Shown here piece after piece: positions 1-55,000 of a DNA stretch of 64,000 bases; position 1 is the first letter of the stretch, and every line of letters begins with the position of its first letter. Where the stretch lies: positions 620,001 to 684,000 of the forward strand of contig OZ287068.1 of assembly GCA_965645245.1 (NCBI GenBank), in the 5' to 3' direction. Source of the stretch: Massalongia carnosa. Taxonomy: Eukaryota. The position numbers and the translations under genes were made by a program. The notes under the pieces were generated by a model. It made no database searches, was not told the origin of the DNA, and saw only the letters and a list, made by a program, of their open reading frames with translations.

Positions 1-3000
1 TCATAGCAAAGATCAGAGAGAACCCATCTAACGTCAATCGTGAAGAACTAATAGGGAAAGTCAGAGAATACAAGAGGCAAATCGATATATGGCAGAGCGA
101 ATGCAATGTGAATTACCTGATGTGGTCGTTAATGTTGGAAGGTGAAATCAATGAACTAGATGGAAATCATCATAATGCCATTCAAGCTTACGAGGCTGCA
201 ATCGACCATACCATGCTACACGACTTTGTACTCGAGCAAGCATTAGCGATTGAGCTACAGGGGGGGTTTTACATACGTCGGGGCGCCAAACGAGCCGCAC
301 GTTCCATGTTGTTGGATTCCATCTTCATTTATTCACGAATTAATGCTAACGGAAAGTCTTCTCAACTCAAGGAAAAACACGAATGGGTGCTAAATGGGAC
401 CTCAACTATGCGCACTGCGGATGTCGGGGTACAGACAGCAAGCACCATTGGTGAAATTGGTAACACTCAATATCGCATCGAAGAGAATGAGCGCCAGGAG
501 ACACGAAATCTGGGTCGAGAAACTGCTGGTGATCGCACAAAAGCCTGGGTCGCCCCGGAATCTCCTACTAGAAACTCATCGAAGAGACAAGACTCCGTCG
601 CAAGCCCGGACACGTCCGGGCTGGGACTAGATGTACTTGATCTTCAGAGTATTCTCGAATTCAATCAAGCAATCTCCTCTGAGCTACAGATAGATCGCCT
701 ATTAGCTCAAATGACTGGGATCATTTTGGAAAGTGCTGGTGCACAGGCCGATTTTGCTGCAGTGGTTATTGAAGGGGAAGGAGGTTGGTGTATTGCCGCT
801 AGTGGCACAGCAGACAAAATCTTATCAGAGGTGAGCGCTTCGGCCCTGAAAAGCTATAGCAATGCTAATATTCACAGGCTGTGCCTCTTTCAGAAATCCA
901 GGATGAAACGCAAAAGCAAGTTCTACTATATACCATGCGGTTCAAGGAGATTGTTTTCGTCCGTAATGTGGTTCATGATGATAGGTTTTGCAACACGCCA
1001 TCCATCAAGTCGGTTATATCTCTGCCTATTATCCAAGGGAGCGATCTGTTAGGAGTACTCTATTTAGTAAGTCTATCTGTTCTAAGACAAAGCAGTTTTC
1101 GAATTAGACTTAGTTGAAATAAACAATAAATCCAAACACCTATTCGACGTATTCTTTGTATACGGGTAATCTAAGCTAATTTTCTGCTAGGAAGGTCAGC
1201 CCAATTCTTTCACAGATCGTAACCTTGGTGTACTACAGTTACTCTGTAACCAGGTTGGTATCTCGATTTCCAACGCTCTTCTTTTTAGGCGGATTAGAAA
1301 AGTCTCAGCTTTAAATACTAGCATGATAGAGTCACAGAAGCGCGCTCTAGCTAAGGCTCGAGAAGCCGAGACCAAGGCCAAACTTGCTGAAGCTGAAGCA
1401 ATGAGGAATGCAAAAGCGAAGTCTATATTTTTGGCGAATGTTTCCCATGAACTCCGGACTCCTCTGAATGGTGTCATTGGTATGTCAGAGCTGCTTAAAG
1501 CTACGTCTCTGAACAGGGAACAAGACGGATACGCCGATTCTATCCGTGTCTGTGCAGGTAAGAGTATTCCCGTATATCCATTAGAAGTTATATATTGATG
1601 TTGGAAGATACGCTATTGACGGTCATCAACGACATCCTCGACTTTTCAAAGCTGGAGGCAGGAAAGATGAAACTCTTTAGCGTGCCGCTGAATCTTAGAG
1701 ATACCATTACCGAAGTAGTTCGAGCTTTATCATACACTAATATCGAACGTGGTTTGCAGACCATAGAAGATTTAGACCTGGACTCAACAACGCTGGTATT
1801 TGGCGATCCTGTCCGATTGCACCAAATCATCATGAACCTGCTTAGCAACAGCTATAAGTTTACTGCCAAAGGCTCTGTGACGGTACGATCCCGGACCGAA
1901 TGCGAAAATGATGAAATCATTCGCGTTACCTTTTCCGTGACGGATACGGGAATTGGTATCACACAAGAGCAAGTCTCTAGGCTTTTCAGGCCCTTTTCTC
2001 AAGCTGACAGCAGTACACAACGGTCCTACGGTGGAAGCGGGCTTGGATTATCCATCTGCAAAGCGCTCGTGAATGTTCTCAAGGGGAAGATTTGGCTTGA
2101 AAGCCAAATAGGAGTCGGCACTACCGTGTTCTTCACCATCACATTTCCTAAAGCTGTAAAGGCTGCTGTTACTGATAACCCCGAGATTTCTGCCAAGCAT
2201 CCAGATCCCATGGCAACCTGGTCATCGGACACGGATGGAATAGTCTCCAGCACCTCCATCGCCTCGTATTTCGATCTCACCCAAATACCACGTCATCTAA
2301 TTCGCATATGCGTTGCAGAAGACAATCCAATTAACCAAAAAATTGCTGTCTCCTTTGTTACCAAGCTAGGATTAAAATGTGAGGCATTCAGTGATGGCCT
2401 GCAGGCCGTAGAGGCACTTCGCCGCGGATCAAAGGAACGTCAACCTTTTCATCTGGTGCTTATGGACGTGCAAATGCCGGTGCTCGGGGGCTACGAGGCG
2501 ACACAGTTGATCCGGAAAGATGACGATCCAGCGGTCCGTGGCGTTCTGATCATCGCTATGACAGCTTCTGCGATTCGAGGGGATCGCGAGAAATGCCTAC
2601 AAGCGGGCATGAATGATTATCTTGCGAAGCCTGTGCGCGCGGCGGTACTTAAGTCGATGCTGGAGATTTATCTTACACGGTCGTCGATAACCACACCGAG
2701 TCTACAAGGAACACCTGCTACGACCACGACCACTGCTGCTCGAAACGGCCTGGACGAAAGTGTGCAAGACAGGAAAAAACTCAAAGACCCAAACGCACGG
2801 CCAGAAATCTTGAAAAGCCCGAATTCCCGCAACGAAGAGCCTTCCGATTTACAATCCTCAATGACTTCGCCGCAGCTGATGAATCAAAATGGCATTAGTG
2901 CAGCCAATCTTCCGCCTCTTCAGACTTCAAACGGCGCAGCGGACGAGATACTCCCTGTGAGGCCATCTAAGCATCTCAATAAAACCAGCAGCAATGCCAG

Positions 3001-3127
3001 CGATGAGACTATCACACAAGCCACTCGTGCGAGACTTTCTAGCGACGGCGATAATTCCCTTGCATCTTCTGATCCTCCATCTCCTCCACTCCGCCTTTCA
3101 TCGCGCTCGGGGCTCGAAAAGAACTGA
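1..3127 (+). CDS. Hybrid histidine kinase, 3' part (GAF-HisKA-HATPase-REC); probably the large group X (Chk1/PhkA-type) kinase; 5' end lies outside the window
   Basis: Exons <1-830, 878-1066, 1191-1557 and 1608-3127 join in frame via GT-AG introns. Motifs: [19 protein letters not shown] (GAF entry), [15 protein letters not shown] (H-box), [25 protein letters not shown], receiver [17 protein letters not shown]. Confidence 0.92.
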
Positions 3128-6636: not shown

Positions 6637-8440
6637 AATGCGGTCCACAGCTAATTTGCTGAGTTGCTCCTCCAGGCTCAATCAAACCAGATCCTCGTTT
6701 CAAATCTTTTGCTGGATATGAAACCCATGAATTCGGGCATCAAGCCACCAAAGTATCTGTATGTAACTTGCCATTGGGTTATTACCGAGTACAGAGCGCT
6801 CTGTACTCGATGCCCCGTGATGCCCGGTCGCCTGAAGCCTGTACATAAGGGTCAACTTTTGTTCGTGGAGGACTGGATCAGGATCTGGATCAGGATCCGA
6901 CTTGCCCACAGAACAACCCCTCGCACTTCTGTACGGGAGACACGTAGGTAGGTAGGTCGGCAGGTGGGTAGGTCGGTAGGTACTCTGTACGCTGTAACGG
7001 ATACGGACTCGTCGGCGAGCATGGCACCAATCCGGCTATCGCGTAATTCGGATTCCCCTCAAGCCTTTGACCAAAGCAGTCACAACCGATGAGGTGGCTA
7101 CGTAACAGGTTCTCCCTCAATCAATCCCGTGGTCCCTTAGCCCAAGGGCCTTAGGCTTCCCCCTTTCCCTCCCCGTGACTTGGGGCTTTTTCGTACCATG
7201 TATCTCCATACCCAAGCAGTTAGAACCGCGTCACGAAAGACGGGTAAAAAAGTAACGAACCGGAGTTGGGACCCATCGGACCACCCAACAGAAAAAGTCA
7301 ATGAAAAAAAAAAGGCAGAAGAAGCGCGTGGAATGGGGAAAGCGAAAAAACGCTGCTGTCGACCTCACTAAACCTCATCCCTCTGTTCGCGCGCTCTCGC
7401 AGTCCTGTACGGAGTAGGGATCAGTCATCCAGTGGATGTGTGCGCTAAGTGCCTTGCTCACTATGTCCTGCCAACCTGGCGTGACGTGATCCAGCCTGCC
7501 TGATTGGACGAGAGAAGTCTTTTATGTTCCCTTTTTCCTTCGATGCGATCACCTCGGATTCTGCTCTTCTCATCTCTCAGGACGCTTGGGATATCATATC
7601 ATATATCTTCATAAACCATCTCATACATCAATCATGATAGCGATGATGATCGCGGACCACTCCGATCACTCAACAGTGAAATGAATGCCTCCCCTCACCG
7701 GCCTCGTCCTGCCTTGCTTCGCCCTGCGTCGCCTCACCCGTTACAGAGTACCCTTCGAGTCCCCTGTTTGAGGGAAGCTCTCTACGGAGAACCCATCCCA
7801 CTAGACTAGGCACTGCGACCTCATCACCACCACCGACCACGATTTAACCCTTGACCCTTTCCGCACTTCTTCTCTCTCCCCCAATCAACGTCCATGCCGC
7901 TGCCGAGCTGCAAATCATCTACTCCATCTGTCCTCTTATGCCCTACCCTTCTTCCTTAGTCTTATTAGCTTCCTTCGAGAACAAACGCCTCTTTTCCATT
8001 TCCCCCCCCCCCCTCTCCATCCCTAGTCCATCTCCGTTACGACATACCCAGCAGTGAATGCTACGCGCCCCCCCTTCAGGATCGGCTTTGCAGAGCATAG
8101 CCTGTTCCCTTTTTCAATCTCTATTTCTGAAGCGTTCAAAACAGGAAGGTTGCCACGACACGGCTTGCCCGCAAAAGGCATAGGCTTCTTACCTCATCTG
8201 GTCGATCCATCTTCAACGGTCAAGGTCCAATCTGGTATTCAAGAAAGCCACAATCCCATAAGATCGTCCGCCCTCATTTCAGTCTCGATCATCCTCGACT
8301 CCGCCAAGGTTGTATACATATTCATCTTGTATTTCCTTTCTCGCCCCCGAAAACCCCCCTCCCCTTCTTTCCCCCCCCCTCCCCCCCCCAACCCATATCC
8401 TGGCAGTATTGTCGTCTCATAAGACCCGAAGTCGCGCCTT

Positions 8441-9964
8441 ATGTTGCTTACGCTTAAACCGACGCTACAGAACGGGTTTAGCCCTCATGCGTACTCACCT
8501 CCGGCACGCTTTGCATCCCCCTCAACATTTCCCACCGCGGGATCTCTCCCTCTGCTGGACAGCACACCACGCAGGATGAGCACTCATCCTCGCGGACTAC
8601 CGCCGCCTTCGGCGATGACCTTGCCCACGCCAGATCGAATCCCTCCACCCAGCAGTCTCCCCATGGGTGCACTACCTGCGGCACCGTCACAGTGGCAAGG
8701 TGCGGATGAGTCGATGCGAAACTGGCTGCAAGCGAAATCCGAGGAAGATCGACGGAAACAAGAGGAGGAGCGAAGTCGACAAGAAAGTTACCGGCTGGAA
8801 ACGCGTAAGATCGAACAAACCATGTTGCGAGAGTCTCTGGCCGGCGGTGTTCCACCGTACATGGTGCCGATGGTGTTTGCAGGTATCGGTGGCGCTAACT
8901 TGGCCAACGCGAGCTTGGAATGGGCACAGCATTACATGGCACAGATCAGTCTACAGCAGCAGGTTCAGCTACAGCAGCAGCAGCAGCAGCAGCAACAACA
9001 ACAACAGCAGCAGCAGCAGCAACAGCAACAAGTTCAACCACAAGTGCAAGTGTCTCCGGAGCAACGCCGAGATAATCGAATGGTCGTGGGGCCTCAGCCA
9101 AACCCATACGGACCGCAGCAAATGCAACAATCAGCGCCGACGGTTCCGTTGCAGACTCCGCAGCAACTTCCCTCTCAGTCACAGCCAGGCACGAGTTTTG
9201 TTTCCTCGTACCAACTGGGTTCGGCCGCGGAGCGCGCACGAACACAACAACCCACTTTACAAGCCGCCCCGCCCACATCAGCTCCCCGACCGCCGCTATC
9301 AACATCATTACCACGGCTGAACACGGTGGAAATGCAAATCCAGCCGCCACCAACCGGTCCTGCGAGTCTACAGCTGCCAGGCCAGCATCCTCTCCAGCAG
9401 GCACAGAGTGCCCAGCCATCAGATCAGCAGCCATCTTCCTCCCCGACCATCTATTTTCATCATTGGGTTCCCCCCACTACGCAAGCGGGTGGCAAGGACC
9501 CTTCAACCCCGTCCGGGAAGAGCCAGCACGAATCTCCGTACTCGCAGAGCCAGGGCTCCCATCTACGTTCGGAGTACGCTAGTTCTCCGAAGAAGCGAAA
9601 AGCCACAGGAGCGCACCAGCCGGCGCCCCCTCCCACGTCGAACCCTCCGGACACATCCCCGTCCTTCTCCCACACCTCTTCAGCTTCGACATCTGGCCGG
9701 CGACGTGGTCACTCTCGGCAACGCAGCGATGCTTCATCACGGGCGATGCAGGAGCAGGCAGGCCTGCGCCATCGGCCGGTCGACCGTACAGAAAGTGGGC
9801 GGCAAAGCCTGTCCGAGGCCGAAAGTGGAAGCCAACGGCACAACTCGGCGCAACCTGAAACACGCCAAGTTCAGCAGCATCCGACCGGTTCGGAAATGAG
9901 ACCAGAATTACGAGACGTAAACGAGCGACACAGCCCAAAACGGGAATCGGAAGCGCCATCATAG
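8441..9964 (+). CDS. Gln/Pro/Ser-rich protein of unknown function with a short charged helical core
   Basis: Single 507-aa ATG ORF. Core WLQAKSEEDRRKQEEERSRQESYRLETRKIEQTMLRESLAGGVPPYMVPMVFAG, motif SPTIYFHHWVPP, basic SPKKRK (NLS-like) and a polyQ tract. Confidence 0.85.
   Translation: MLLTLKPTLQNGFSPHAYSPPARFASPSTFPTAGSLPLLDSTPRRMSTHPRGLPPPSAMTLPTPDRIPPPSSLPMGALPAAPSQWQGADESMRNWLQAKSEEDRRKQEEERSRQESYRLETRKIEQTMLRESLAGGVPPYMVPMVFAGIGGANLANASLEWAQHYMAQISLQQQVQLQQQQQQQQQQQQQQQQQQQQVQPQVQVSPEQRRDNRMVVGPQPNPYGPQQMQQSAPTVPLQTPQQLPSQSQPGTSFVSSYQLGSAAERARTQQPTLQAAPPTSAPRPPLSTSLPRLNTVEMQIQPPPTGPASLQLPGQHPLQQAQSAQPSDQQPSSSPTIYFHHWVPPTTQAGGKDPSTPSGKSQHESPYSQSQGSHLRSEYASSPKKRKATGAHQPAPPPTSNPPDTSPSFSHTSSASTSGRRRGHSRQRSDASSRAMQEQAGLRHRPVDRTESGRQSLSEAESGSQRHNSAQPETRQVQQHPTGSEMRPELRDVNERHSPKRESEAPS
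8954..9032 (+). repeat. CAG/CAA trinucleotide repeat encoding polyQ
   Basis: Run of cag/caa codons in frame within the 8441-9964 ORF. Confidence 0.9.
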
Positions 9965-12900
9965 GAGCGATGCAACCTGCCAAGCGGGGCCACGACATGA
10001 ATTTTATCCTGAAGGGGTTTTTTAGCATTCAACGGATTTAGGTTCTTATTTTGTCTTTGATTTGTATCATATTCGGGACGCTATTTTTACATTTTCCCTC
10101 GAACGTCTTTTTTTTTGGGAATACCCTTTCTGCGTTTGTTCGCTTCTCCCCAAAAAGAATGCCGCATCGATTGCGGTTCCGTCAACACTGGCATGTTCGA
10201 TAGCATCTTCTGTTCTCTTCTCCCACCCTGGTGGTCTGTTCCCGTTCTGCCGCAGGTCTCGTCATTTCGCATCTGATGTGATGTTTTACATCGGTGTCCT
10301 GGGTTGACCCTTTATTGTACCATAAAGTAGCATTCTATATGGCGCGGGCGGTATCCACGCAGGCGCAAGCCATTTTGCATCAGACTGTTTCTGCCGCTCT
10401 GCAAGTTCGATATAACTGACCATGACCCTTCGTTCGAATCCATGTCCGCTGCTGCCCCTAGTCCGGAAGGAGATCATGACCGGTTCGGGGTGAAGGTGGA
10501 AATTGCAAGGACCAACGATTATGTGTTGACATGGTCATTGCATCATCGCTTTTCAAGATACCTACTGCCTAGGTACCAGGTACCCGGTACCTACTTTCCT
10601 ACCTGCCTGGGCATGTGTGGATTGGATTACCTAACGGCAAAAGGGAACAGAGCGATCTAGTTCTGCGGGGGGATCGTTCATCGGTGATCAGGGCATTCGT
10701 TGGAAGAGGCAGGGTGATGTGGAGATTAAATGCTCATTTCGGTAGGAGATCCTCCGTTTTTTGATAATGACACGTGCTAATCCTCACGTGACTGTCGGCT
10801 TCTAACCTTATCTGCACCTCGGAAGCGGTGGAGGTCTAACCCGAACGGTCAAGTAACCAATGCAGGTAGTTGCATGTACTTTGGAGAAAGCTAGTTCAGC
10901 AGAAGCGACAACGTCTAGAGGAGAGAAAGCATAATAGAAGTATGTGAAATTGTTCGACGAGTGATTGGTTGGTCGGCTGGGGTTGAAACCAGCCGTGCTG
11001 AAACCATACTAGCTACTTATGGCTAAAACACCGCAATGTAGCTGAGTTAGGGTTTGACGAACTGAACGACGAACGGGCGGGGTTTGCTTGATCAAGAGAC
11101 CTTCCTTTACCTATTGACGGGAGTATCTATGCATATCTTACTTACCTCCTTATGATCAGCGCGAAAGCTTCGACGGAATGGGTGGTCCTTGGAGCACGTC
11201 TGCCAGCCTCCTTGCAAGGCGCGTCAGAAGATCTTTCCTGGATGCATCAGGGCATGCAGCGTTTCCGTTTCCGTTTCCGTATTTCCTAGTCTCTCCTTTC
11301 TCCTCCGAAAGACCCAGCTTGCTCATCAGTAATAGAGTAGCTGTCTCGTTGCCGGTTGACCTGAGTCGATCTCCTTCTAGAAGCTTTAGATACTTTCTGA
11401 TGCATGAAAGGGGGCCAATGAAACTTCTCGCCAGCTTCTTTTTCTCCGCCGTGCTTGCCTTACAGGCCAGCTATTCGCTGACTGCTTCGCGGAACTTATA
11501 GTGGTATGCAGCAAACGTATTTCCATCTCATTGGTTCAGTTTGAAGCCTTCAGAAGTATCGTCAGCGATGATCCTCTGGAGTTGTGATGGTTGTCTGCTG
11601 TTGAGGGTGCTTTTTCATGGATCTTCGATTCGAATCTTGCGCTAAGTGCAGTAGTTCGGACTTGCAAGCAATCGTCGAAAGCTGTTGCCCTCATCCACTG
11701 TAATAAAGCGGTGTTCCCAATCCTCTTTCGGCCGACTTTAATCAACTGTGTTCTAGCTCCGGTAAACTCTTCAACGACTTTAGCTTCGGTTTTTTTCCTT
11801 TTTTTTCCCCTCAAAGGATCGTGTTTCCTAAATTTGTAGCCCATATATATTCATTCCTTCCATTCATCCCCCTTTGTCTAATCATCTATACGAAACCGCA
11901 AATCAATGAACCTTTCCCCGACGTTCTCTTCCCATACCGACTAGCCAATGGACGACTGATATTTTGCGAAATGTCCCCAGAGCCTCCTCATGAGACTTTT
12001 GGCTGGGGGGGGGGGCGCGGGGGTTTGATGTTTTCCGAAAATCTTTACATACCGATTCCGTTCCTCCCAGAAGCCGGCGAACGACTCGCTCCCTCCAACA
12101 ATTGAGCACTGAAAGCCTCGGTTTGTGCTTGTAAGATTCCCCAAGGGTCCAGGATCGTCCCGTATCGAGCGGGGTCGGTTTTGTCACACCACCTGCAGTC
12201 AGCAGCAGAGCATCGTCACAGAGCAGCTTTAGCATCAGCTTCACAAATCTCTCTTCCTCCCCCTTCCCATTCAACCAATCTTTTCGGTCCCCCATCATCA
12301 TTCAAGGCCAGGCGAGGCTCTGAAAACCGGGCTCTCCTGCCCCTGGATCGCCGGGAAACATCTTTCTGGATTAATCTCAAAAATCGAGTAAAGCATCTCC
12401 CCCACAGAAAAGAGCCAGGCAGGGACTAACTTAGCCCACCTCGAGGCGCTCATGGGGTTTGTCCGCATTCCCAGCGCGCGTTGAACTACCGCGCAGCACC
12501 CGAGGATAGCGTTTTTGCAGCAAAAAGACGGAAAGCTATATAACAAGAACCCCCCCCCCCCCACCGATTGCTAGTATAAGTATGTATGTAATTTGCCCAG
12601 GAATTCCTCGGTGAGAGTTTCGGACTAGTAGGCGGCGACGCTTTCATTTTGATGTTCCTCTCCACTTTTTGGCGCCAGCTTTCGATTTCCAGGGTCTCCT
12701 AGATACTCTACTTCTGTTACTTTCCCCCATTTCTCTCCCTCTACTAGATTCCCCAAGATCCGTTAGCCAGCAAGCATCTCGCCATGATCCGTTAGGGGGC
12801 TCTATACGACGACTGGAACGGGACTCTCGACGACCACCGGCATGGTCAAGCTTTGTATGATACGTACTTCTTGTTGTTTTGCCAACTAACCAACCACTCT

Positions 12901-13547
12901 ATGTGCATATTAGTGAAGTCGGTCTTCTACCCACAAGCAGAGATACATAGATACGAATACCCCTTACCACAACGGTAATCAGTCAAATAAACCTTCCTCC
13001 CCCCCCCTTAAAAACCACAACCTCAACACCTCACACGACACCGACGACAGTAAGATCCGTTTCCCCCCCCCTCCTCTTTGCCTGTATACCACTACTTTGA
13101 ACCTCCCCGGTCCAAAACCCCTGGTCCAAAACCATCCATCCACCTATCACGGAGAAACCTGGCCCGTTTAGGCTCGAGGTTGAATCTCTCTAAGTTTTGT
13201 CCTTCTGTTGTGTTAAGAGCCTTTGGCTACCCCGTATAGCAGCCGATGAGCTTTTGCAAAGGGGTTGATTCAAAAGTCTGAGCTAGAGCCAGCGAGCTTT
13301 TGCAGAAGATCAGATATCACGGGGGTTGTTGACTCGGAATCCTAGGCCGGAGCCAGCGATTTCTTGGGAAAAGGGTTGGTGATAGCTTTTCACATAGTTA
13401 AAGAGCCATTTGTATTTGCAAGGCACGTTCTTTTCATATGCTGGTCTGGCTAGGTAGTATAGTTTAGTCTAGCATGATACAGAAGAGGATGGAATAATTG
13501 CGCCCTTACGCCGATTGCCTGTACAGAGAGGGGATGACATGCGCATG

Positions 13548-14783
13548 TTAATCCTCTGTGTGTTCAGGATCAGGGTCCAATCCCATCACCGCCTTGATAT
13601 GGTGCCTGACTAGCTGTGTAGAGGAATCGGTACCGTATCTAAGCTCTGCTGACTCTTCCGACATTTCACCGTGTCCTGGGACATTATGTTCTTTTAGAAC
13701 CTCCTCTAGCGTTGTTTGAACATGTACCCTCGCGTCTGGCTCGGATATCGTAGTCCTCCTCCTTATAATAACCTCTTGGCCTTCGATCGATAATATTGAT
13801 AAATCTGCCACATATTCGCTTGTCTGCCTGTGTTTCACTCTTCTTGGCTCTAATTCGTCGTATGCTTTTCGCTTCCGCACTGTAGGGTGTACGCCTTGTA
13901 CCATAGGCCTTTCGAGTTGTCCATATTCTAACCCCCACTTTACCGCTAGGGCTTGAAGACACAATTCAGGATGCGCCGCAATTGCGACTTCGAGGGTGTC
14001 ATATTGAGTGGCATCTGCATCCTCGGATTCGTGGATCTTCCAGTCTTGCCAGCCATCAATAGCGTAGTGTTTCGCCAGTCGTTGAAGAGCAGGGACTATT
14101 AGAGTTAGGTTGATAAGCATGTTCGAAAACTTGATAAGCTTACTGTTAGACTTGAGATACCAAAAACGTCTGACCGTCAAGGGAAAATCAGGAGCCACTA
14201 TATTCTTCGATTGGCCAGCTTGGTCTTGGACAAGTGCTCGAACCTTTTCGATTGAAAGATTCAATCTGGTGACCAAACGATTTCTCGCTACCGCCATAAG
14301 GTTGTCTGTTGACGCCTCGAGCTTGTCTGTGGACGCCTTAAGGTCGTCTTTAACAACCTTAAGGTCATCTTTGGTCGCGAACGCCTTAAGGTCATCTTTG
14401 GTCGCGAACGCCTTAAGGTCATCTTTAGTCGCGAACGCCTTAAGGTCGTCTTTGGTCGCGAACGTCTTAAGGTCGTCTTTGATCGCCTTGAATTGCTTTT
14501 GGATGTACTTGAAATGATCATCACCTTTCTTGTCGACCCTTTCAACCTTCTTATCCAGTTCATCTAGACGGCAATCCAAGTAGCGGCGATCATCGTATAA
14601 ATACGTTGCCGATTCACTCAACATACTGATGGCGCCATTGAGGAATGGTCTCAGATCTGTCTCGGAATCTGAAGGTCGCTCAGGTAAAACTAAAGTGACT
14701 GAGCCGGAAGAGCACGCTTGAGCCGTCTTAGAGAGAGCCTTTAGTTTCTCGAAAGAATAAAACATAGAGGTTGGTGCTGCCAT
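13548..14783 (-). CDS. Coiled-coil protein with nonad (FATKDDLKA) repeats and a putative DUF1773/Mug135-like domain
   Basis: 411-aa ATG ORF. Probable 48-nt intron at 14096-14143 (GTAAGC...CTAAC...TAG) gives ..WYLKSN|IPALQRL... Repeat stalk is followed by AVARN..IEKV..PDFPLTVRRFWYL..LQRLAKHYAI. Confidence 0.75.
   Translation of the reverse strand: MAAPTSMFYSFEKLKALSKTAQACSSGSVTLVLPERPSDSETDLRPFLNGAISMLSESATYLYDDRRYLDCRLDELDKKVERVDKKGDDHFKYIQKQFKAIKDDLKTFATKDDLKAFATKDDLKAFATKDDLKAFATKDDLKVVKDDLKASTDKLEASTDNLMAVARNRLVTRLNLSIEKVRALVQDQAGQSKNIVAPDFPLTVRRFWYLKSNSKLIKFSNMLINLTLIVPALQRLAKHYAIDGWQDWKIHESEDADATQYDTLEVAIAAHPELCLQALAVKWGLEYGQLERPMVQGVHPTVRKRKAYDELEPRRVKHRQTSEYVADLSILSIEGQEVIIRRRTTISEPDARVHVQTTLEEVLKEHNVPGHGEMSEESAELRYGTDSSTQLVRHHIKAVMGLDPDPEHTED
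14300..14490 (-). repeat. Coding tandem repeat: four 27-bp units plus 21-bp heptad units
   Basis: Plus-strand unit cgccttaaggtcatctttggtcgcgaa is repeated. Peptide: KDDLKTFATKDDLKAFATKDDLKAFATKDDLKAFATKDDLKVVKDDLKASTDKLEASTD. Confidence 0.95.
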
Positions 14784-15809
14784 GATGCGTCTTGATGCGA
14801 TCTGGATAACGATGGTTGGTTGAAGGGATGATGGTGTGTGCCGCTCATAAGTCGGAAATCACATGACCCCGTTTCCTTTCAGCCTCATAATTCGCACTAG
14901 GTATCACCTTTCATCCTACTTGTTCCTACACTTATTGCTAAACACTTTCATGCAAAATCTGTGTAAACGAGCTTTATCAACCTTGTAACGAGAATGATGA
15001 CACTGTCACTCATCTTATGGTAGCTGAGAATGACACTGAAACAATCCAAAGATTGTTTTTCACTGTCAACTTTAATCTCGAATCCCCCATACTAACGACG
15101 AATCAGCTCTCCCGCCAGTTCCTAAGCTTGATAAAAAGATGTGCATTACCATTTCAAAACAAGATGTTCGTCACTCAAATATAATGGTTGCATGGTTCGG
15201 TTTGAATCATATAGAAGAACTTTTCAAAGCGTTCTTGAGGAGTGTCTAGTGTTGATAATCTGTCTATTGCTGATGATAATCGAAATCTCTCAATGAGAGA
15301 GTAATCAAATCGATACTGGGATCGAAAAGCATCTATACATATCTCCACCAGTTAGGCCATCAAATCAACAGGTCTCCTTAACAGAATAGTAAGGCAACAA
15401 CCAGAGTATAAGAATGCGGCTCGAAAAATTTATGTTTCATTCAGGAAGGATGTAGCCTGTTGAGAATCACTACCAATGTTACTTAGTCTGCTCCTCGGTA
15501 TTCAACTCCTGTCAACAAAGCTAGCAGTGACGTGGATATTTCTCGCTGTCTACGTGAGAACCATATGATGCTGCTTATTTTGTCAAGGAGCTCCTTTAGG
15601 AAAGTCGCCCATTGGTAGTCGACCTAGAAGCTAGAGGTAGTACCGGTTTGATCTCGTTTGTATTAGCATGCAAGTGTTAGAAGGTCGAACTTGCTAGGTA
15701 TCTTTTGGGAAATGAGGCAGATTCGCGGACGGTTGACAACGAAGGCTATACTGCGGTGAGCTATAAGGTTGCTTTGGAATCTCTCCGAGAAATCATTCTC
15801 GACCTTGCG

Positions 15810-16030
15810 GATTACAAGCACATGTGCTATCTAGAAGTGGCTGTTACCGCTCTGCACTCAGTTACGGAGTGAGGCGAAAAACTTGATCCGGAGGTGTTGC
15901 CGTTTCTGCTTCATTTCCTAAAACTTACGACACAGCTCATCAGAAGCAAATGATAATTCACGGCCGGACCGGTCTCCATTCTGCTGTTCGATGCCAGAAT
16001 GGGAAAATGGCTAAGCTACTTGTGATTCAT
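15810..16030 (+). pseudogene. Decayed ankyrin-repeat gene fragment
   Basis: Fragments VTALHSVTE*GEKLDPEVLPFLL and EANDN/(+1)HGRTGLHSAVRCQNGKMAKLLV match the ankyrin consensus D..G.T.LH.A......v.lL, with a stop and frameshifts. Confidence 0.45.
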
Positions 16031-17402
16031 CGAATTGGACGTGCAGGTCTGCAAATCTCAAACCAGAACTTTCAGGAGAGTGGGAAAGTATTCTCGCCAG
16101 AGCTTGAGGAGACAATGTTGTCAATATGTCAGCCTTTATGTATATCAGGGGACGTCTTATTATTTTCAAACGATCTTGCTCTTATCGCTGAGCGGAAGGG
16201 TTCTACCCTGCATTGATGCTTCAACTCGAGCTTGAATGATGTCTACGGAGATCTAGATACGATAAATTACGCATTTCAAGCAAGAGCTGAGATAAGACAC
16301 GGAAGGTTGGGGAGTCATGCTGAGAGCGAAAGTAAGCGGTCTATCCCGGCAAGGATTCGCCAACGTAGAGAGAGCGTAAAAAAAAAAAGGAAATGGAAAC
16401 GTCAACCGTTCCCTTCTCAGCATCGGCCTTTTCCTATCCTATCTTCTATCTTCCAATCTTTCCAATCCTTTCAATCTCCAATACCCCTCTCCACCCTGCC
16501 CGGAACATACCTACCTATCTACCTACCTACCCACTCTCATACCACCCCACTCATCTCTTTCCCGGAACAACCCCACACCAACCCAACAAACACACCACCT
16601 ACTAAGACGGGAATGAGGGACGAACCATGGTAGTTCAGTTCAGTTCAGCTTTCCGGTTCTCGAAGACAAAAACGGCAAGGAATCGATTCGCGTTGCCTAC
16701 CTGCTTGCTTGCTTGCTTGCCAGGCCCTTTTTTCCCTTTCTACCTTCATCACTTTTATTACTTCCATCACCTCTATCACTGACTGACTGACTAAACCGAA
16801 TGGGCTTTCCCCCCAAAACCATCCCAGTTTTCCGATGGGGGGAGGGGGAGGGGGAGGGGTTCTTTTAACATCGCCACTGACAACAATGTGTACGGGAACG
16901 CTGAGTGAGAACATAGGTAAAAGTGCTTTGGGGGGGTGGGATGGTATATGTATGCAGTTGTAGGCCGGGGTAGGTGGGGGAGGGAGGACCTGTCTCTACA
17001 TATCTCGCTCTGTATGTGCAAGGTGCATTGCGTGTAGTTACTCTGGGCCTGTGTATGTGAAAAGGGCAAGGTGGGGACCCTGGTCGTGTCTTTCTTTATG
17101 AACACAACATCAACAGGGTAAGTAGGTAGGCTAACTACATACACCATCCGCCCCCTTTTCCCTCCCTCCCTAACAGAACATCCCCCAACAAAAAATCATC
17201 CCTAGTGATTATGGCTTCCGTGCCGAAGAAAAAAAACAACAATGTTGTTGTCGAAAACTAAGAACGGATTTGGGTATCAAAAAATCGCTACTTCCTGCCT
17301 CCCTCCCTCCATTCCATTACCACTTTTCGAACGGCCGCTGTAACGGAAACCGTTCACGTTCAGGAAATTCTCCCCTAGAGTTAAAAATACGAGATAAGCA
17401 AG

Positions 17403-19886
17403 CTACGTCCTCTTTCGATGCAGCTTCCACTCCGCCTTCGCGACCCGCATCAGCAGCTCCTCGTCACGGACCGGGATCCAGCTCGTGAGCACCTTCATGG
17501 AATTCTCAAAATCTGAGTCGAGCAAGATGTCGCGCGTGCCGTCGACTAGGGCGGCGGAAGCGGCGTGCAAGACGTCGAGACCGCCGTTGAAGGATTTTGG
17601 CAAGGTATTTGGGGGAAGAGCGTCTGCGGTGGAAGAAGAGTTTGAAGGAGGTGGAAGTGGAGGGATCGGATCGGGGTCACCGAGGAGCATGAAGACGTCC
17701 CAAACGCGGAGTTGGGCGGGGAAGGGGATGGAGTAGTTGAAGAGGGTGAGGTACCAGCGGGTGCCGTACGCGGTGGGGGAGATGTTTAGCTTCGTCTAAG
17801 GACATAGTCAGCCATCTTGTCCAACACATCTTTGCAGTTGGTCGAGCCATCGAGGGTAACATTACAAGGTGAAGCTTACTAGTTTCGTAGCTAGCTCCCC
17901 GTTGCCAAGCCAAGTCTTTTCAAACTCGTCGAGAGCGAGCATTAATCCTTGGAACCCGGCTTCGTAAAGTTGTTCTAGACCCCGGAGCTGCCACAGCCGC
18001 ACAAGCATCACAAATGCCATTTCTTCGTCAAAGTAGCAGAGAAGGGTGGCCGCCAAGGCCGCCATACCTTGCACATAGCCGGTGTCTGGGAAGTAGATGG
18101 ACAGACAGTGCAGGACCCTAAACAGCAGTCTTTGTCCTCCACGATAACGCCGCCGAAACATGATGTGGCTATTGATTGTGCGCGGGACGTCAATATCGAT
18201 TTGCACATCATCGGGAGATCCTTGGTCAATTAATTTTTGGAAAGTCGTGATAAGCTGCTCGTCGCTCGGGCTACCTTTTCGATTTTTGGCACTGGCCGTC
18301 ATGAACGCGTGCCATGCTGTTGCGCGCCATCGATCAGGTATCCCTTTCCAAGTCCTCTCGATCACTTTGGGGCTCTTCGTATCAAACTCGAACGTCATCC
18401 CGCCACCGTCTCGGTTCTTGTTGACTATCTTGGCCATCTTCCTCCATTTCCCCTCCCTCTCCCACTCCTTTCTTTTCAGCTCCTCCGCAGCCTGGCTACT
18501 CTCGTCATTTTCTGCAATGTCAGCCAGCCCCGGTGGAAGAGTTAGCATGTCGCCTGCTTCGTCTATGATCCTTCGGTCCTTGTGATGTGGGAGTCGGCTG
18601 GTGGTGGATCGAAGCTTTGATTGACCACCACTAATGCTACCTTGGCTCGAGCTTTGCGATGAAGACGGGCGGACCAATCTTGATGAAGTTCTTCTTGTGG
18701 TTAGGTGTGCAGTCGCCGAAAGTGGAGTTCTAGTTGATGCGTTCCTCCTTACCGTGCTTCGCTCCCTTCGGGGTGCTTCAGATGCAACTTGTAGAGAAGT
18801 AGAAACACGCTGAATTCGGGGCGGATCTGGTAGTGGAGAGTTTAATGACGACCCCTGGGAAGACAGCTTGCGTTGAACAATGAATCCATATCGATCCACA
18901 TCCCCGCCTCTGATGTCCTCCCAGTCTTCTATCCCACTTGCCAGTTCGTTCTCCTGCAACATTATAAGACTTTCTGTCTTACTATCCACCGTGGCAGCAA
19001 AGGATGGGTTCCTACTTTCCGGGGCGACATTCAAATCTCCGAATAGCACTCCATTGGATTGAACCGGTGATCGTGGAGCTTCTTCCGTAACAACACCATT
19101 ATCAAGCCCGCTTTTGTCCTTTACATGTGTTCTTCCAGCCCAATCAGATACCCTATCTGTTCCTCCTTCGTACATGGAGCGCACTTTGTGAGAAAGCATT
19201 TCGTCATCCGCAGAGAGTATTCGAGCGGGGACGCTCGGCGATGGTAGGGGCAACGAAGCATCTGGTATTCTGCGGCTGCCTACTAGCAGGGAATGCTTGA
19301 AAGGCGACCCGTTGGCATTGTTCGCCTTCTTGCCCCCAATCAGCATGCTTCCTCGCTTTGAAAAATCCACTTGACCAGGGATTGTCAAATCGTCAAATGT
19401 CCCGGTCGGAATATCCGTCACGATCCCCATGAAAGGCATTGGCGGTGTTGAAGATTTTATCTGGTCTTTCGAAACTCGTTGCCTCATCGATCCCCATCTC
19501 GTGTTTCTTTTGGAGGACGTCGTGGCTGCAGCGTCAGCTAAAGGAAACTTTGGAGGGTTGGGAGAGTCATTCAGGCTTGCCGCAGACTCTTTGTCGGTCC
19601 CGAGAGCTGTGCGGTTCTCAAGTGGTGTGTTGGTGGCAGATGGCGCCGGTGCTGAATCTCTTCTCGTTCCGTCCGTTAACTTTAAGCAGGCTGAGTAAGG
19701 CGAAAGCTGTTGACTTGCGGAAGTGATCGGTCGCCCTAAGCCTGTTTGTTTTAGATGAGGTAAAGGCGGAGGCGATGAACCACTCGTGAACGGAATAGGC
19801 GGTTTCGCAGCTGCAGTGCTTTCATAGCAAACAGCTTTGAGGCTCCCAATGCTCTGGGGGCGAGGTGAGGTCGGCATCGGCTTCAT
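17403..19886 (-). CDS. Rab GTPase-activating protein (TBC domain)
   Basis: Exons 19886-17880 and 17795-17403. Motifs KGIPDRWRATAW, QIDIDVPRT (IxxDxxR), YVQGM (YxQ), RWYLTLF..AQLRVWDVF. Confidence 0.93.
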
Positions 19887-52041: not shown

Positions 52042-55000
52042 TTAACCGGCTTCATTCGCTAAGCGGTCACTTAGGAAAACATGGGGTGTATTCGGATCCA
52101 CCAGGTCGATAAGGAGATTGCCCAGCGTGCGCCACTCGACCGGTTTAGTGGTATATTGCGTGAAGCCCGCGGCGGCAGAGTCACGCTGACCCTCGGCCAT
52201 GATGTTAGCCGAGAGCGCGATTATCGGGATGTGCGGGTGATGGTGCTGTTTTTCCCAAGCACGGATCTCGCGGCAGGTTTCGTAGCCATCTTTATTGGGC
52301 ATTTGAATGTCGCACTACGGGTTCTCGCCGTTAGGAAGGAGGGATGCAAAAGTAGAGAAAGAATATATGGGGCCAGCTTACTATTATCACAGAGTAGTAC
52401 AGTGGAGCATGGGAGAAGACCAGCTTAGTACACTCCTCTCCGTCCCAAGCTTCGATCACCTCCAGGCAGCACATCTTGCGAAGAAAGTGGGATAGCATCT
52501 ACCGATGATAAGTATGTACAGCCATTTGCAACTTGTATTACACACCTTCATGTTAAGTTTGTTGTCTTCCACGGCCAACACCCGGATTCCTCGGTTTCCA
52601 AGGATTTCTTCAAATTTCTTAAAAGCTTGTTTCTGAATGTCGACGACTTCAACTGCGTTGGCTCGGACGTGGTCTTTACTCAGCGCATTCTCTTGTCTCG
52701 GATCGAAAATCTTGGCAAATTTAGGCGGTTTGGCTGGCTTAAGCATAAAGTGGAGCCGCTGACTTGCAACGAGCTGATCATAGTTAAAGTTTGGCGCACC
52801 AGCCATAATCGCTGCCTGCTGAGCTTGATCGGTAATGATTACCATACATGTTTGTGAATGAGATCTCGAGTTCAGAATCAGCTCTATGAATGCCAGAACA
52901 TGTACGGCATCATTGAGCTGTAAGACAATATGAGTGAATACAACCGGTTGCTCGCCGGATATTATGTTGTGGCTTGCAATAATGTCCTCACTGGTAGCAA
53001 CCTGAGCAGGAATTGATGGCGGTAGAATTTGCCTTATGTGAGCCTCGGTGGTACGGCGGGTATGTTCCTGGGGACAAACTATCAGAATTGAGTAAATAGG
53101 CGGGTGCGTTAGCTCGGGTCCAACTAAGGGGGAGATCAGTTCAGGAATACTTCTTCCCTCCATGCTACCTTGCTTGGACGGCAAGGTCAAGTCCAATGCA
53201 GCAAAAGTATCTCGACTGTCCAGAGAAGAAGCAGAGGATCTTAGCGACCTACGAGCTGCTCTAAGAGAAGATGCCACGGAAGGGTCGGAGCTCCCAGAAG
53301 ACTCCAAGGTATCAGCCTTGATAGATATTTCACCAGGGGATGTTACAAGACTACGACCAAAAACATGCTTCTTCCCTCTAACATAGCTCGAAGAAGAGGT
53401 GCTCTCCGAAGAATTTTGGTAGGGGATCTTTGGACGATCTGCATCGGTGGGAAGTTTGAAACGTGCTGAAAACGTAAAAGTAGATCCTTTCCCTGGAGTA
53501 CTGAATGCAGATATATCACCATGATGTAACTCTACCATCTGCTTGCAAAGAAGAAGGCCAAGCCCAGTTCCGCCATTATGTCGAGTGCTGCTATTATCGA
53601 TTTGGCTATAGGGCCTGAAGAGAATTTTCGCGTCGTCCTCGGTAAATCCGCTGCCGGTATCCTGAACACTGAACAATAGAAAAATATCGCTTGGATCAGT
53701 CGAAGGATAGGCTTCACCGGGAGGAGGTTTTTTGACTGTGCAATCCACGAAAATCTCTCCTCGCTGTGTGAATTTGATGGCATTACTAACGAGATTCAGC
53801 AGAATCTGCCGGATCCGACCACCATCTCCCTTCACATTTGATGGTACCTCCTTATCTACAGCATAACAAAGCTCTAGGCGCTTTTCGTTCGCTTTTGAGG
53901 CTAGTGTCTCGAAAACATCTTCGATGACGGATCGGATATGGAACCAGTCGTAGTAGAGCGTGAGCATCTTAGCTTCAGCTTTGGAGACATCAAGAATGTC
54001 GTTAATTAGATCATGCATCCCTCGAGCCGCTGCGTCGGCACCATAAGTCCACTCTGATTGATACTCATCCAAATGGCTGTTCAATAAGAACTGTAGGTTC
54101 CCGATTATCCCGTTTAGAGGAGTCCTTATTTCATGTGACATGGTACTTAAGAATTGCATCTTCCGAGTTGTTTCTGATTCAAGCGTAGTGTTAGCTTCTT
54201 TCAACTTTTCCTCAATGCCCTTCTGGTCACTAATATCCGCGCAAGCAATGATCCATTGCGCGTCTCCTTGACCAAAGTTGACAGATTCAATAAGGGACCC
54301 TTGCACCAGATGCCAACGATATTGCCCCAGCTTAGACCTCAATCTCATCTCTGTGGTAATAGAAAGACGTCCCTGATCATCCTTTGATGCCTTGATTACG
54401 CCTCTGGTCGTCAATTTTCGTAGCAGGCCTGATGGAACAACCACTGGCGTACTCCCTGGGGTCTCATCACCTACAGGTTTCTGAAGCTCCCCTTTCATAG
54501 TTTCGTCTGTAGAGGCGGATTTCTGGGAAACTTCTGCTGAGGACAACGATCTCCCACTAAGAGAAGGAGGACCCAAAGTCCGAGAGCTCCAGTCGGCGGG
54601 TGCAACGTATTCATCTGTAAAAGCTGGAAATTGACATTTAACGATATCGTCGGGATGCACATGATCCAAGAAGCCAAAGCCAAGAGCATCATTGAAACAT
54701 TGCCCGGAGTATGAAAGCCACTGAGTATTTGCAAAAGTTAAACCCTCCGGTACTGAGGCTGCAAGTATGATGTGGGGGTTTGAATTCGCTAAAGATCTGT
54801 ATTTGCTTTCTGAATTGGCCTTTTCCTTCTCTCGAGCTGCGTTCACTTCGGCAACGTGCTGATCATGTATATCCATCGCCTGACCGTGCCAATGCTTGAT
54901 GCTGGAGTAAGAGTCTTTGATAGGGACGATGCGAATGTGGAACCAGCGATAATGACCATCGAACCGCCTTAATCGGACTTGGTGTGAAATCTGATCTCCT

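What the first reader, a model, noticed from the sequence alone, without database searches (positions are those of the whole stretch)
13548..14783. Candidate Tdk1/Mug135-like single-gene toxin-antidote (meiotic-drive-type) protein in an accessory island
Seen: a lone intact ORF among decayed DNA, with an N-terminal ~80-aa region, a repeat-expanded coiled-coil stalk, then AVARN..IEKV..PDFPLTVRRFWYL..LQRLAKHYAI and an extra ~150-aa tail containing a basic KRK..RRVK patch. Knowledge (recalled, not searched): an 'AR..N ... P.FP.T ... L..L...Y.L' segment after a coiled coil characterises the DUF1773/Mug135-like C-terminal domain. S. pombe Mug135 (Tdk1) is a repeat-expanded DUF1773 protein acting as a killer meiotic driver, with a trimeric stalk and a C-terminal domain that binds the BET protein Bdf1. 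Inference: this may be a Pezizomycotina counterpart, i.e. a selfish toxin-antidote locus.
Basis: partly seen in the sequence, partly recalled or inferred. Interest (0 to 1): 0.78.

Follow-up and report, generated by a model that had tools for sequence, protein, structure and literature searches.

The report
Tdk1-like stalk-and-head gene in lichen fungus
An intact gene of a probably lichen-forming fungus encodes a nuclear stalk-and-head protein whose head looks most like that of the fission-yeast selfish killer gene tdk1, hinting that this driver family reaches a fungal group where it was reported absent, although no killing activity has been shown.

Summary
The ORF is real. It is a two-exon gene (13548-14783, minus strand) with a 48-nt in-frame intron, giving 395 aa when spliced.

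It belongs to an unnamed Pezizomycotina family: 119 cluster representatives at E<=1e-3, from four classes.

The protein has four parts:
- a short N-terminal helix and a conserved LPxRP linker;
- one long helix carrying a recently expanded 27-nt repeat, which encodes FATKDDLKA nonads of the trimeric alpha/beta coiled-coil type;
- a compact head domain;
- a tail with a KRK..RRVK nuclear-localisation-like patch.

No sequence method links it to Pfam PF08593/DUF1773, and Foldseek finds nothing.

Family traits echo tdk genes: variable stalk repeats, deep paralogs and RIP-like dead copies.

The 'accessory island' is not supported, because the neighbours are ordinary genes and the locus is colinear in a second isolate.

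Toxin-antidote drive is untested. The listed SNPs (4 synonymous, 1 not) suggest purifying selection.

Verdict: a probable remote Tdk-superfamily relative whose function is not established.

The parts
13548..14783 (-). Whole gene from ATG to stop: 411 codons read through, 395 aa after splicing
   Evidence: full-length homologs
14144..14783 (-). Exon 1 (640 nt): N-terminal region, stalk and first part of the head domain
   Evidence: junction confirmed by P0003
14096..14143 (-). 48-nt in-frame, stop-free intron (GTAAGC...CTAAC...TAG); phase 1
   Evidence: spliced homologs lack these 16 residues; pLDDT about 62 for these residues
13548..14095 (-). Exon 2: rest of the head domain and the tail; stop codon at 13548-13550
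14673..14687 (-). LPERP motif (residues 33-37) in the linker between the N-terminal helix and the stalk; conserved as LPxRP across subfamilies
   Evidence: linker seen in the P0003 model
14280..14648 (-). Long stalk helix, about residues 46-168
   Evidence: P0003 model helix 45-172; window model helix ending at residue 168; in-register trimer contacts
14357..14486 (-). 27-nt tandem repeat, 4.8 copies, 95% matches; encodes FATKDDLKA nonads (residues 108-142)
   Evidence: short-read contigs of 3 runs break here
14292..14378 (-). Degenerate 21-nt (heptad) repeat, 4.1 copies, 69% matches
13905..14297 (-). Head domain (read-through residues 163-293, interrupted by the intron): ARNRL, beta-hairpin, FPLTVRRFW, LQRLAKHY, helical part up to GLEYGQL. 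Structurally closest to the Tdk1 stalk end plus C-terminal domain
13827..13877 (-). Basic bipartite patch RKRK...RRVKHR (residues 303-319), nuclear-localisation-like and conserved family-wide as KRK..RRV(K/R)
   Evidence: that it acts as an NLS is an inference
13551..13904 (-). C-terminal tail (residues 294-411) with three conserved short segments; predicted mostly disordered in the homolog

Best explanation
This is a functional, spliced gene for a nuclear, self-associating stalk-and-head protein. It belongs to an unnamed but widespread and patchy Pezizomycotina family.

The family is most likely a very divergent branch of the Tdk/DUF1773 (IPR013902) superfamily, whose fission-yeast members are single-protein toxin-antidote killer meiotic drivers.

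Shown:
- the gene model;
- the family and its range;
- the expanded nonad repeat;
- a confident head-domain fold whose only clear solved look-alike is Tdk1.

Predicted: the stalk forms a parallel in-register trimer, with alpha/beta coiled-coil layers at the nonads.

Inferred:
- the KRK..RRVK patch takes the protein into the nucleus;
- the head sits on top of the stalk as in the Tdk1 'mushroom';
- the disordered tail motifs bind partners.

In this genome the gene behaves like a fixed, single-copy gene under purifying selection. I therefore read it as a retained descendant of such an element, either a fixed driver or one taken over by the host, rather than as a demonstrated active driver.
For: Gene model and family:
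- Gene and intron.
- The domain profile A2 found 119 representatives at E<=1e-3, of which 67 at <=1e-10 and 20 at <=1e-30, among 1.84 billion proteins.
- Named members come from Lecanoromycetes, Eurotiomycetes, Dothideomycetes and Coniocybomycetes.

Structure:
- The head model has pLDDT 89.9 and pTM 0.82.
- The aligned Tdk1 range covers the stalk end and the DUF1773 segment 268-340 (PMC11551393, passages).

Architecture like Tdk:
- N-terminal part, proline-containing linker, long helix with internal repeats, then head (Tdk features from PMC12930445 section 8).
- The stalk repeat number varies among six orthologous loci: 6, 4, 4, 3, 6 and 3 heptad units.
- Two deep clades each hold both lichen fungi and Eurotiales.
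- RIP-like dead copies exist: 96 of 99, 65 of 68 and 52 of 58 differences can be explained by C>T/G>A changes alone in one direction and 0 in the other. Five of the six control pairs gave 14-46 in either direction; the sixth, P0089/P0131, gave 16 and 3.

Oligomer:
- The homotrimer model of residues 101-300 scored 0.71, with the best of 3 controls at 0.00.
- That mark was reached by 21 of 30 proteins solved as pairs of one chain and by 0 of 23 solved as single chains. These counts hold only roughly here, because the job had three copies and the calibration two.
- On eukaryotes the mark was reached by 17 of 29, but by only 1 of 7 with no older solved relative, and by 0 of 30 single chains.
- The runs agree in at least 65% of contacts and partner pLDDT is 51-52.
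- Contacts are in register and follow a 9-residue period over the nonads, then a 3-4 spacing.
- The nonads match the solved trimeric Tcar0761 construct 5apz (E 6.7e-7; PMC4786415, passages). The pass may therefore come from memory of that structure.

Selection:
- Between 13548 and 14386, the second isolate shows 5 listed SNPs, 4 synonymous and 1 not (P313S).
- dN/dS is 0.29-0.57 for the more diverged pairs of the L001-L006 orthologs, over 383 of 436 columns.
Against: Sequence searches:
- Pfam PF08593 is absent at E<=10 from the protein and from 11 domain pieces, and at E<=0.1 from 63 of the 119 relatives scanned.
- HMMER profiles A1, A2 and A6 do not find Tdk1 among PDB sequences at E<=10.
- None of the proteins found with the broad profile carries PF08593: 39 in the near length range and 1 in the longer range.

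Structure:
- Foldseek gives nothing at E<=0.001 for either model.
- The head is longer than the Tdk1 C-terminal domain, and a tail of about 118 aa follows that Tdk1 lacks.

Population and locus:
- Depth is the same as the flanks, there is no second copy in the window, and the locus is colinear in a second isolate.
- Substitutions are mostly synonymous. A stable gene of this kind is not what an active, turning-over driver typically looks like.
Confidence: 0.6

Rival explanations
1. The gene is an active or recently active single-gene killer meiotic driver that works like Tdk1. One protein would be harmless in one oligomeric state and toxic after a conformational switch in spores, with new synthesis in carriers acting as antidote.
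For: - Tdk1 is the only clear structural match of the head.
- The stalk carries a recently expanded repeat with 95% identical units, and repeat number varies among close relatives. The tdk authors note internal repeats as a possible source of incompatibility (PMC12930445 discussion, passage).
- The protein has an NLS-like patch, and Tdk1 is reported as nuclear (PMC11551426, passage).
- The family is patchy, has deep paralogs and includes RIP-like dead copies.
Against: - No genetic or expression data exist.
- The gene is single-copy and colinear in the second isolate, and 4 of the 5 listed SNPs are synonymous.
- dN/dS is below 1 in related orthologs, except for near-identical pairs with 5-11 differences. 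For tdk1 a piN/piS of 1.2 was reported (PMC11551393, passage).
- The neighbours are ordinary genes.
- Even within Schizosaccharomyces, about half of the tdk loci are pseudogenes (49 of 93) and only three active and one marginal driver are described (PMC12930445).
Confidence: 0.15
2. The family is unrelated to Tdk. The shared helix-plus-small-head shape is convergent or a chance match, and the protein is an ordinary nuclear coiled-coil scaffold, for example a chromatin or transcription factor partner.
For: - All sequence-level tests are negative, and so is Foldseek.
- The signals are those of purifying selection at a stable locus.
- The conserved tail motifs and the insertion in the head have no Tdk counterpart.
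Against: - The Tdk1 match was predicted beforehand from a motif, then came first and second of 48,161 chains. It lies 2 Z units above the rest and covers 106 residues within Tdk1 241-349 (109 positions).
- The order of parts and the repeat-bearing stalk also agree.
Confidence: 0.28
3. The ORF is a chance open frame or a dead gene.
For: - It lies in an ORF-poor stretch.
- The stored gene call P0002 reads through the intron.
Against: - The open frame runs 436 codons at about 47% GC.
- Full-length homologs at 37-48% identity cover 87-99% of the query.
- The family is conserved from end to end.
- The fold is confident.
- Variation is mostly synonymous.
Confidence: 0.02

Closest known systems
Tdk1 (S. 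pombe SPCC330.04c/mug135) and the tdk family; DUF1773 = Pfam PF08593 = IPR013902; structures 9JA5 and 9JA6
   Same: - The order of parts: N-terminal region, proline-containing linker, long helix with an internal variable repeat, compact C-terminal head.
- A parallel coiled-coil oligomer is predicted.
- A basic nuclear-type patch is present.
- The family is patchy, has several deep lineages and includes dead copies.
   Different: - No detectable sequence or profile similarity, and 14% identity in the structural alignment.
- The head carries an extra GW..W acidic insertion, and a conserved tail of about 118 aa follows it.
- The stalk repeats here are 9-residue ATKDD nonads.
- The host group is Pezizomycotina, where IPR013902 was reported in 0 of 832 species (PMC12930445 section 13).
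- Drive, toxicity and BET-protein binding are all untested.
Alpha/beta coiled coils with beta-layer nonads (Thermosinus Tcar0761, PDB 5apz; Hartmann et al. 2016, PMC4786415)
   Same: - Four to five tandem 9-residue units FATKDDLKA against MATKDD(L/I)A(R/N) (E 6.7e-7).
- They fit the published consensus [aliphatic]-A-T-K-[polar]-[DE] (passage), apart from F at the first place.
- The trimer model shows in-register contacts with a 9-residue period.
   Different: [quoted passage not shown]
- Here the nonads are a young expansion inside a fungal gene whose relatives carry 7- or 11-residue units instead.
- The likeness therefore concerns the repeat unit, not the gene.
DUF3294 (Pfam PF07957), a fungal family of unknown function
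   Same: - Weak matches over the ARN..FP.T part occur in 3 of 63 relatives. The best is P0081, E 7.9e-4, 19.7 bits against a cut-off of 20.6.
- An ESM-Atlas lead scored 0.81.
   Different: - All matches are below the curated cut-off, and the window's own protein has none.
- No paper text was found for this family.
Known spore killers of Pezizomycotina (Spok, Neurospora rfk-1, Fusarium SKC1); recalled, except that an rfk-1 preprint appeared in the listing
   Same: They share the host subphylum and a similar proposed outcome, the killing of spores that lack the element.
   Different: These are unrelated proteins and mechanisms as far as I recall. No comparison was run here.

Membership tests
Tdk / DUF1773 (PF08593, IPR013902) | Match to the Pfam PF08593 profile | tested here: not met
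   - No PF08593 row at E<=10 for the protein.
- None for 11 domain pieces at E<=10.
- None for 63 of the 119 relatives at E<=0.1.
- 0 of the 40 proteins found with profile A6 (39 near, 1 longer) carry it.
Tdk / DUF1773 (PF08593, IPR013902) | C-terminal globular domain with the Tdk1 fold, continuous with the end of the stalk helix | tested here: met
Tdk / DUF1773 (PF08593, IPR013902) | Alpha-helix of variable length directly before the domain, with internal repeats | tested here: met
   - A single helix spans residues 45-172 in the P0003 model.
- The window gene has 27-nt and 21-nt repeats.
- Repeat units number 6, 4, 4, 3, 6 and 3 among orthologous loci.
Tdk / DUF1773 (PF08593, IPR013902) | [quoted passage not shown] | not testable with these tools
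   - The solved Tdk1 chains cover residues 118-129 and 211-354 only, and no Tdk sequence or model was on hand.
- This family has helix 7-24, a linker with conserved LPxRP, and then the stalk. That is suggestive only.
Tdk / DUF1773 (PF08593, IPR013902) | Parallel coiled-coil self-association (trimer of the C-terminal part; tetramer of full-length Tdk1) | tested here: met
   - This is a prediction only. The trimer of residues 101-300 scored 0.71, with the best of 3 controls at 0.00.
- The mark was reached by 21 of 30 solved one-chain pairs and 0 of 23 single chains. These counts are rough here, because the job had three copies.
- On eukaryotes it was reached by 17 of 29, by 1 of 7 without an older solved relative, and by 0 of 30 single chains.
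- The runs agree in at least 65% of contacts and pLDDT is 51-52.
- The pass may come from memory of 5apz.
- A tetramer was not tested, and head-to-head contacts are not among the confident contacts.
Tdk / DUF1773 (PF08593, IPR013902) | Several copies per genome with many pseudogenes | tested here: inconclusive
   - At family level there are two deep clades, each holding Teloschistaceae members, and RIP-like dead copies.
- For this genome, depth equals the flanks and the window has no second copy, but no whole genome is held.
Tdk / DUF1773 (PF08593, IPR013902) | Killer meiotic drive by one protein acting as toxin and antidote; for Tdk1 itself, binding to Bdf1 | not testable with these tools
   This needs crosses, expression assays and binding assays.
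Alpha/beta coiled coil (beta-layer nonads) | Tandem 9-residue units with [aliphatic]-A-T-K-[polar]-[DE] | tested here: met
   - The FATKDDLKA units span residues 108-142.
- They align to the Tcar0761 construct 5apz at E 6.7e-7.
- The consensus comes from PMC4786415.
- F stands where an aliphatic residue is usual.
DUF3294 (PF07957) | Match to the Pfam profile at its curated cut-off | tested here: not met
   - The window's protein has no row.
- The best relative scores 19.7 bits against 20.6.

The most novel reading that the evidence does not exclude
[quoted passage not shown] On this reading the young ATKDD nonad expansion, a trimer-specifying alpha/beta coiled coil, sets the oligomeric switch or the mutual incompatibility between alleles.
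Probability: 0.12. Interest if true: 0.85.

Novelty: new variant of a known kind. Interest (0 to 1): 0.62.

Why it matters
Both tdk papers state that DUF1773/IPR013902 proteins are absent from Pezizomycotina. PMC11551393 says so in a passage, and PMC12930445 section 13 reports 0 of 832 species.

The family found here is structurally Tdk1-like and invisible to the Pfam model. It occurs in lichen fungi and in Aspergillus, Penicillium, Talaromyces and black yeasts.

If it is a true relative, this single-protein driver superfamily would extend to the largest fungal subphylum. That would support the proposed ancient origin of the superfamily. It would also make the idea testable in species that can be crossed and transformed.

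Separately, the gene gives a eukaryotic example of a tandem ATKDD nonad array. In the passages read, such arrays are described from prokaryotic proteins. Here the array arose by a recent repeat expansion.

Tried and rejected
Structure searches:
- Foldseek against PDB found nothing at E<=0.001 with either the full-length homolog model or the head model.
- VIA-align with the full-length model returned only coiled coils, because the long helix filled the list.

ESM Atlas:
- For P0003 residues 160-357 it gave weak leads only. One cluster at 0.82 carries PF08593 on 16% of its members, and a DUF3294 cluster scored 0.81.
- For P0012 it gave no usable hit.

Sequence profiles:
- The family profile A1 against PDB sequences hit only influenza HA2 long helices (best E 1.2e-5). 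I read this as coiled-coil likeness.

Genome and loci:
- The window's own genome is not held.
- The fetched metagenome loci are not in a held genome either, so PF08593 could not be sought there or in control genomes.

Expression:
- No RNA holder was listed for the stretch, so splicing and expression could not be read from reads.

Second isolate:
- All listed indels lie outside the CDS, but 4 indel rows and 18 SNP rows were not shown.
- My arithmetic on the contig pieces gives 7 inserted letters somewhere in 11500-14386 and one deleted letter in 14397-19000.
- The allele's intactness is therefore not proven, and the SNP count for 14397-14783 is a lower bound.
- Contigs break at the 27-nt repeat, so its copy number in other isolates is unknown.

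Ideas dropped:
- My passing idea that 15.6-16.2 kb holds decayed ankyrin repeats found no Pfam support.
- The 'accessory island' reading was rejected.

Neighbours of related locus L002:
- They are a C2H2 zinc-finger ORF and a Gti1/Pac2 ORF, not syntenic with the window.

Steps not made:
- A domain-only fold of the spliced homolog P0003 was not made. The window's own read-through segment was folded instead, so that model carries the 16 intron-coded residues.
- No Tdk-family sequence was on hand, so no profile-profile comparison with PF08593 was run.

Literature and earlier findings:
- The terms DUF3294/PF07957 and five locus tags of family members gave no relevant paper.
- Supplements of the bioRxiv preprint were not seen and may list remote homologs.
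- Earlier findings of this scan held nothing relevant.
Full report
**1. What is in the sequence**

- On the minus strand a frame is open for 436 codons from stop to stop (13548..14858). From the ATG at 14783 it reads 411 codons to a TAA stop at 13548-13550.
- Reading, nucleotides 14143 down to 14096 form a canonical fungal intron of 48 nt: GTAAGC, a CTAAC branch site, then TAG. It is in phase 1, in frame and free of stops.
- Splicing removes 16 residues and joins ...KSN to IPALQRLAKHY..., giving 395 aa.
- The NCBI-annotated homolog P0003 (Gyalolechia fulgens MAG, 357 aa) has exactly this junction.
- In the fold of the read-through segment, the intron-coded residues have pLDDT about 62, with more than 90 on both sides.
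- Tandem Repeats Finder reports a 27-nt unit in 4.8 copies with 95% matches at 14357-14486, and a degenerate 21-nt unit in 4.1 copies at 14292-14378.

**2. Surroundings**

- The window is not an obvious accessory island. Its long ORFs encode two histidine kinases, a RabGAP-TBC protein, allantoicase, a DIL-domain protein, an M13 peptidase, a RasGEF, an FSH1 hydrolase, an AAA ATPase and Mo25.
- The gene does lie in an ORF-poor stretch (3.2-17.4 kb). Of 26 flanking ORFs, 25 have no Pfam match, and the 26th is part of the RabGAP gene.
- No second family member lies in the window. No whole genome is held.

**3. Other isolates**

- Five public runs from three studies hold the stretch, one of them labelled lichen metagenome. 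No RNA holder is listed.
- Laid on 9000-19000, two runs of 'organism A' are identical to the window.
- The lichen-metagenome run of another study is colinear with scattered differences.
- Depth is the same as the flanks, and contigs of three runs break at the 27-nt repeat.
- Between 13548 and 14386 all 23 differences of that contig are listed. Five fall in the CDS: four synonymous and one P313S.
- Some rows of that output were not shown, so the intactness of the second allele is not proven (see Tried and rejected).

**4. The family**

- A word-indexed search found full-length relatives at 37-48% identity, plus many N-terminal or C-terminal halves cut at the intron. The alignment is conserved from the first residues to the last.
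- A profile of the part from ARNRL to the end (A2) was scored against 1.84 billion representatives. It found 119 proteins at E<=1e-3, 67 at <=1e-10 and 20 at <=1e-30.
- Of 30 clusters looked up, 14 carry an organism name:
  - Lecanoromycetes and Coniocybomycetes: Umbilicaria vellea, Villophora microphyllina, Xanthoria sp./Rusavskia elegans, Sclerophora amabilis.
  - Eurotiales: Aspergillus thermomutatus, A. lucknowensis, Penicillium atrosanguineum, P. pancosmium, Talaromyces atroroseus.
  - Other named members: Emmonsiellopsis, Helicocarpus griseus, Myotisia, Rhinocladiella mackenziei, Lepidopterella palustris.
- Together with Gyalolechia these span four classes of Pezizomycotina, four lineages of which were checked.
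- A maximum-likelihood tree was built from 43 rows with at least 95 domain columns; fragments and three hypermutated rows were left out. It splits into two clades with 100/99 support. Each clade holds both Teloschistaceae lichens and Eurotiales. The window's protein pairs with Gyalolechia at 100/99.
- The family is therefore old, patchy, and present as deep paralogs.

**5. Traits that recall selfish or fast-turning genes**

- Six orthologous metagenome loci (L001-L006) differ in the number of VKAVKDD heptads in the stalk: 6, 4, 4, 3, 6 and 3. They also carry other unit gains and losses.
- Three database proteins look like RIP-mutated copies:
  - P0004 to P0007: 96 of 99 differences are explained by C>T/G>A changes alone.
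  - P0004 to P0069: 65 of 68.
  - P0008 to P0072: 52 of 58.
  - In the opposite direction the count is 0 in all three cases.
  - Five of six ordinary pairs gave 14-46 in both directions; one, P0089/P0131, gave 16 and 3.
  - The three proteins contain no Gly or Pro at all.
- RIP acts on duplicated DNA (established knowledge), so family members have been duplicated in some genomes.
- Against a free-running arms race, dN/dS among L001-L006 is 0.29-0.57 for the more diverged pairs. It exceeds 1 only for near-identical pairs with 5-11 differences (383 of 436 columns used).

**6. Sequence-level tests of the DUF1773 idea: all negative**

- Pfam at E<=10 gives only weak coiled-coil-type rows for the protein.
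- None of 11 domain pieces and none of the 63 longer relatives out of the 119 match PF08593.
- Three of those 63 have weak sub-threshold matches to DUF3294.
- HMMER profiles of the whole family (A1), of the lichen-type domain (A2) and of a broad domain-only set (A6, 35 rows) do not find Tdk1 among PDB sequences at E<=10.
- The last two word-indexed searches, run with A6, returned 1 and 39 proteins. None is labelled PF08593.
- By Pfam's own criterion, this protein is therefore not a DUF1773 member.

**7. Structure**

- The homolog P0003 was folded with 108 sequences and gave pLDDT 84. The model has a helix at 7-24, a linker, one uninterrupted helix at 45-172, a small hairpin, five short helices up to residue 285, and a mostly low-confidence tail.
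- Searches with this model were swamped by coiled coils.
- The window's own residues 140-300 were then folded with 83 sequences, giving pLDDT 89.9 and pTM 0.82.
- Foldseek again found nothing.
- The aligned Tdk1 range spans the end of the stalk and the globular domain 276-354, including the DUF1773 segment 268-340 (PMC11551393, passages).
- I take this as good, though not conclusive, evidence of a shared fold and probable remote homology.

**8. The stalk**

- The nonads FATKDDLKA (residues 108-142) align to the GCN4-Tcar0761 construct 5apz at E 6.7e-7.
- That structure is a trimeric alpha/beta coiled coil. Its beta-layer consensus is [aliphatic]-A-T-K-[polar]-[DE] (PMC4786415, passages).
- A three-copy model of residues 101-300 scored 0.71, with the best of 3 controls at 0.00.
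- That mark was reached by 21 of 30 proteins solved as one-chain pairs and by 0 of 23 solved as single chains. These counts are rough here, since the calibration used two copies.
- On eukaryotes the mark was reached by 17 of 29, by 1 of 7 without an older solved relative, and by 0 of 30 single chains.
- The runs agree in at least 65% of contacts and pLDDT is 51-52.
- The confident contacts are in register (residue i with i). They recur every nine residues over the nonads, then at a 3-4 spacing up to residue 166.
- Because 5apz is solved, this pass may reflect memory of that structure. It shows likeness and does not prove a trimer.
- Head-to-head contacts were not among the confident ones.

**9. 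Comparison with the tdk family**

As described in PMC12930445 (sections 8 and 13 and passages), Tdk proteins have a Z-shaped N-terminal part, a PP motif at a flexible linker, a helix of variable length, the IPR013902 domain, internal repeats, many copies and many pseudogenes.

- Features this family shares: the helix, the repeats and the fold of the head.
- A possible counterpart: a conserved LPxRP linker after a short N-terminal helix.
- Family-level signs of paralogy and dead copies are also present.
- Features this family adds: an insertion in the head (GW..W plus an acidic loop) and a tail of about 118 residues, with a basic KRK..RRVK patch and three conserved short segments.
- Both tdk papers report the domain as absent from Pezizomycotina. 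The negative Pfam results here are consistent with that, and suggest why such a family would go unseen.

**10. Verdict**

The 'accessory island' is not.
- The Tdk1-like reading is supported at the level of fold and architecture (about 0.6). It is not supported at the level of Pfam membership.
- It is untested at the level of function. I put an active or recently active driver at about 0.15.
- The main rival is an unrelated nuclear coiled-coil protein with a convergent shape (about 0.28).

Noticed in passing
proteins P0007, P0069, P0072, P0181-P0183 (relatives, not in the window): These copies are hypermutated in a RIP-like way: 96 of 99, 65 of 68 and 52 of 58 differences from their intact relatives can be explained by C>T/G>A changes alone. 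They contain no Gly or Pro at all. They still keep open frames of 154-348 codons (up to 407 stop to stop in P0182) without premature stops, apart from a C-terminal truncation. That is odd for random RIP.
   Followed up: partly
L001-L006, about 9560-9700 in L001-L005 (relatives): The number of stalk heptad repeats differs among six orthologous metagenome loci: 6, 4, 4, 3, 6 and 3 VKAVKDD units. One locus has lost an RIDKLDT unit and another has duplicated a VNQRFD unit.
   Followed up: partly
window 14096-14143; L004-L006: The intron inside the head domain is in frame and stop-free here (48 nt) and in L004-L006 (about 51 nt). L001-L003 carry a stop in it. Intron retention would therefore give a second protein form with an insertion of 16-17 residues in the head. 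L007-L009 lack this intron.
   Followed up: no
proteins P0028-P0035, P0060: Other proteins carry nearly the same nonad, such as FATKDDLRD in more than 15 tandem copies in P0028, the same unit in one named Oligoflexia MAG protein, and the same unit in a Trametes polyzona protein. The repeat unit recurs across very distant lineages.
   Followed up: no
family profile positions 65-155 (stalk start): The whole-family profile hits the long helix of influenza HA2 in hundreds of PDB entries, with a best E of 1.2e-5. This is probably coiled-coil likeness. The alpha/beta coiled-coil paper notes a beta-layer in fusion-pH HA2.
   Followed up: no
window 8423-9964 (+): This 513-codon open frame is rich in Q, P and S, contains a poly-Q run of more than 20 residues, sits in a GC-rich stretch (0.56-0.60) and has no Pfam match. 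It is possibly a low-complexity regulatory protein.
   Followed up: no
relatives P0081, P0085, P0121: These have sub-threshold matches to Pfam DUF3294 (PF07957) over the ARN..FP.T part of the head (best E 7.9e-4). DUF3294 may be another distant relative of this fold.
   Followed up: partly
window 1562-3127 (+) and 52456-58410 (-): Two hybrid histidine-kinase genes lie in the window. One has HATPase_c and a receiver domain. The other is a 1984-codon frame with PAS, HisKA and HATPase_c.
   Followed up: no
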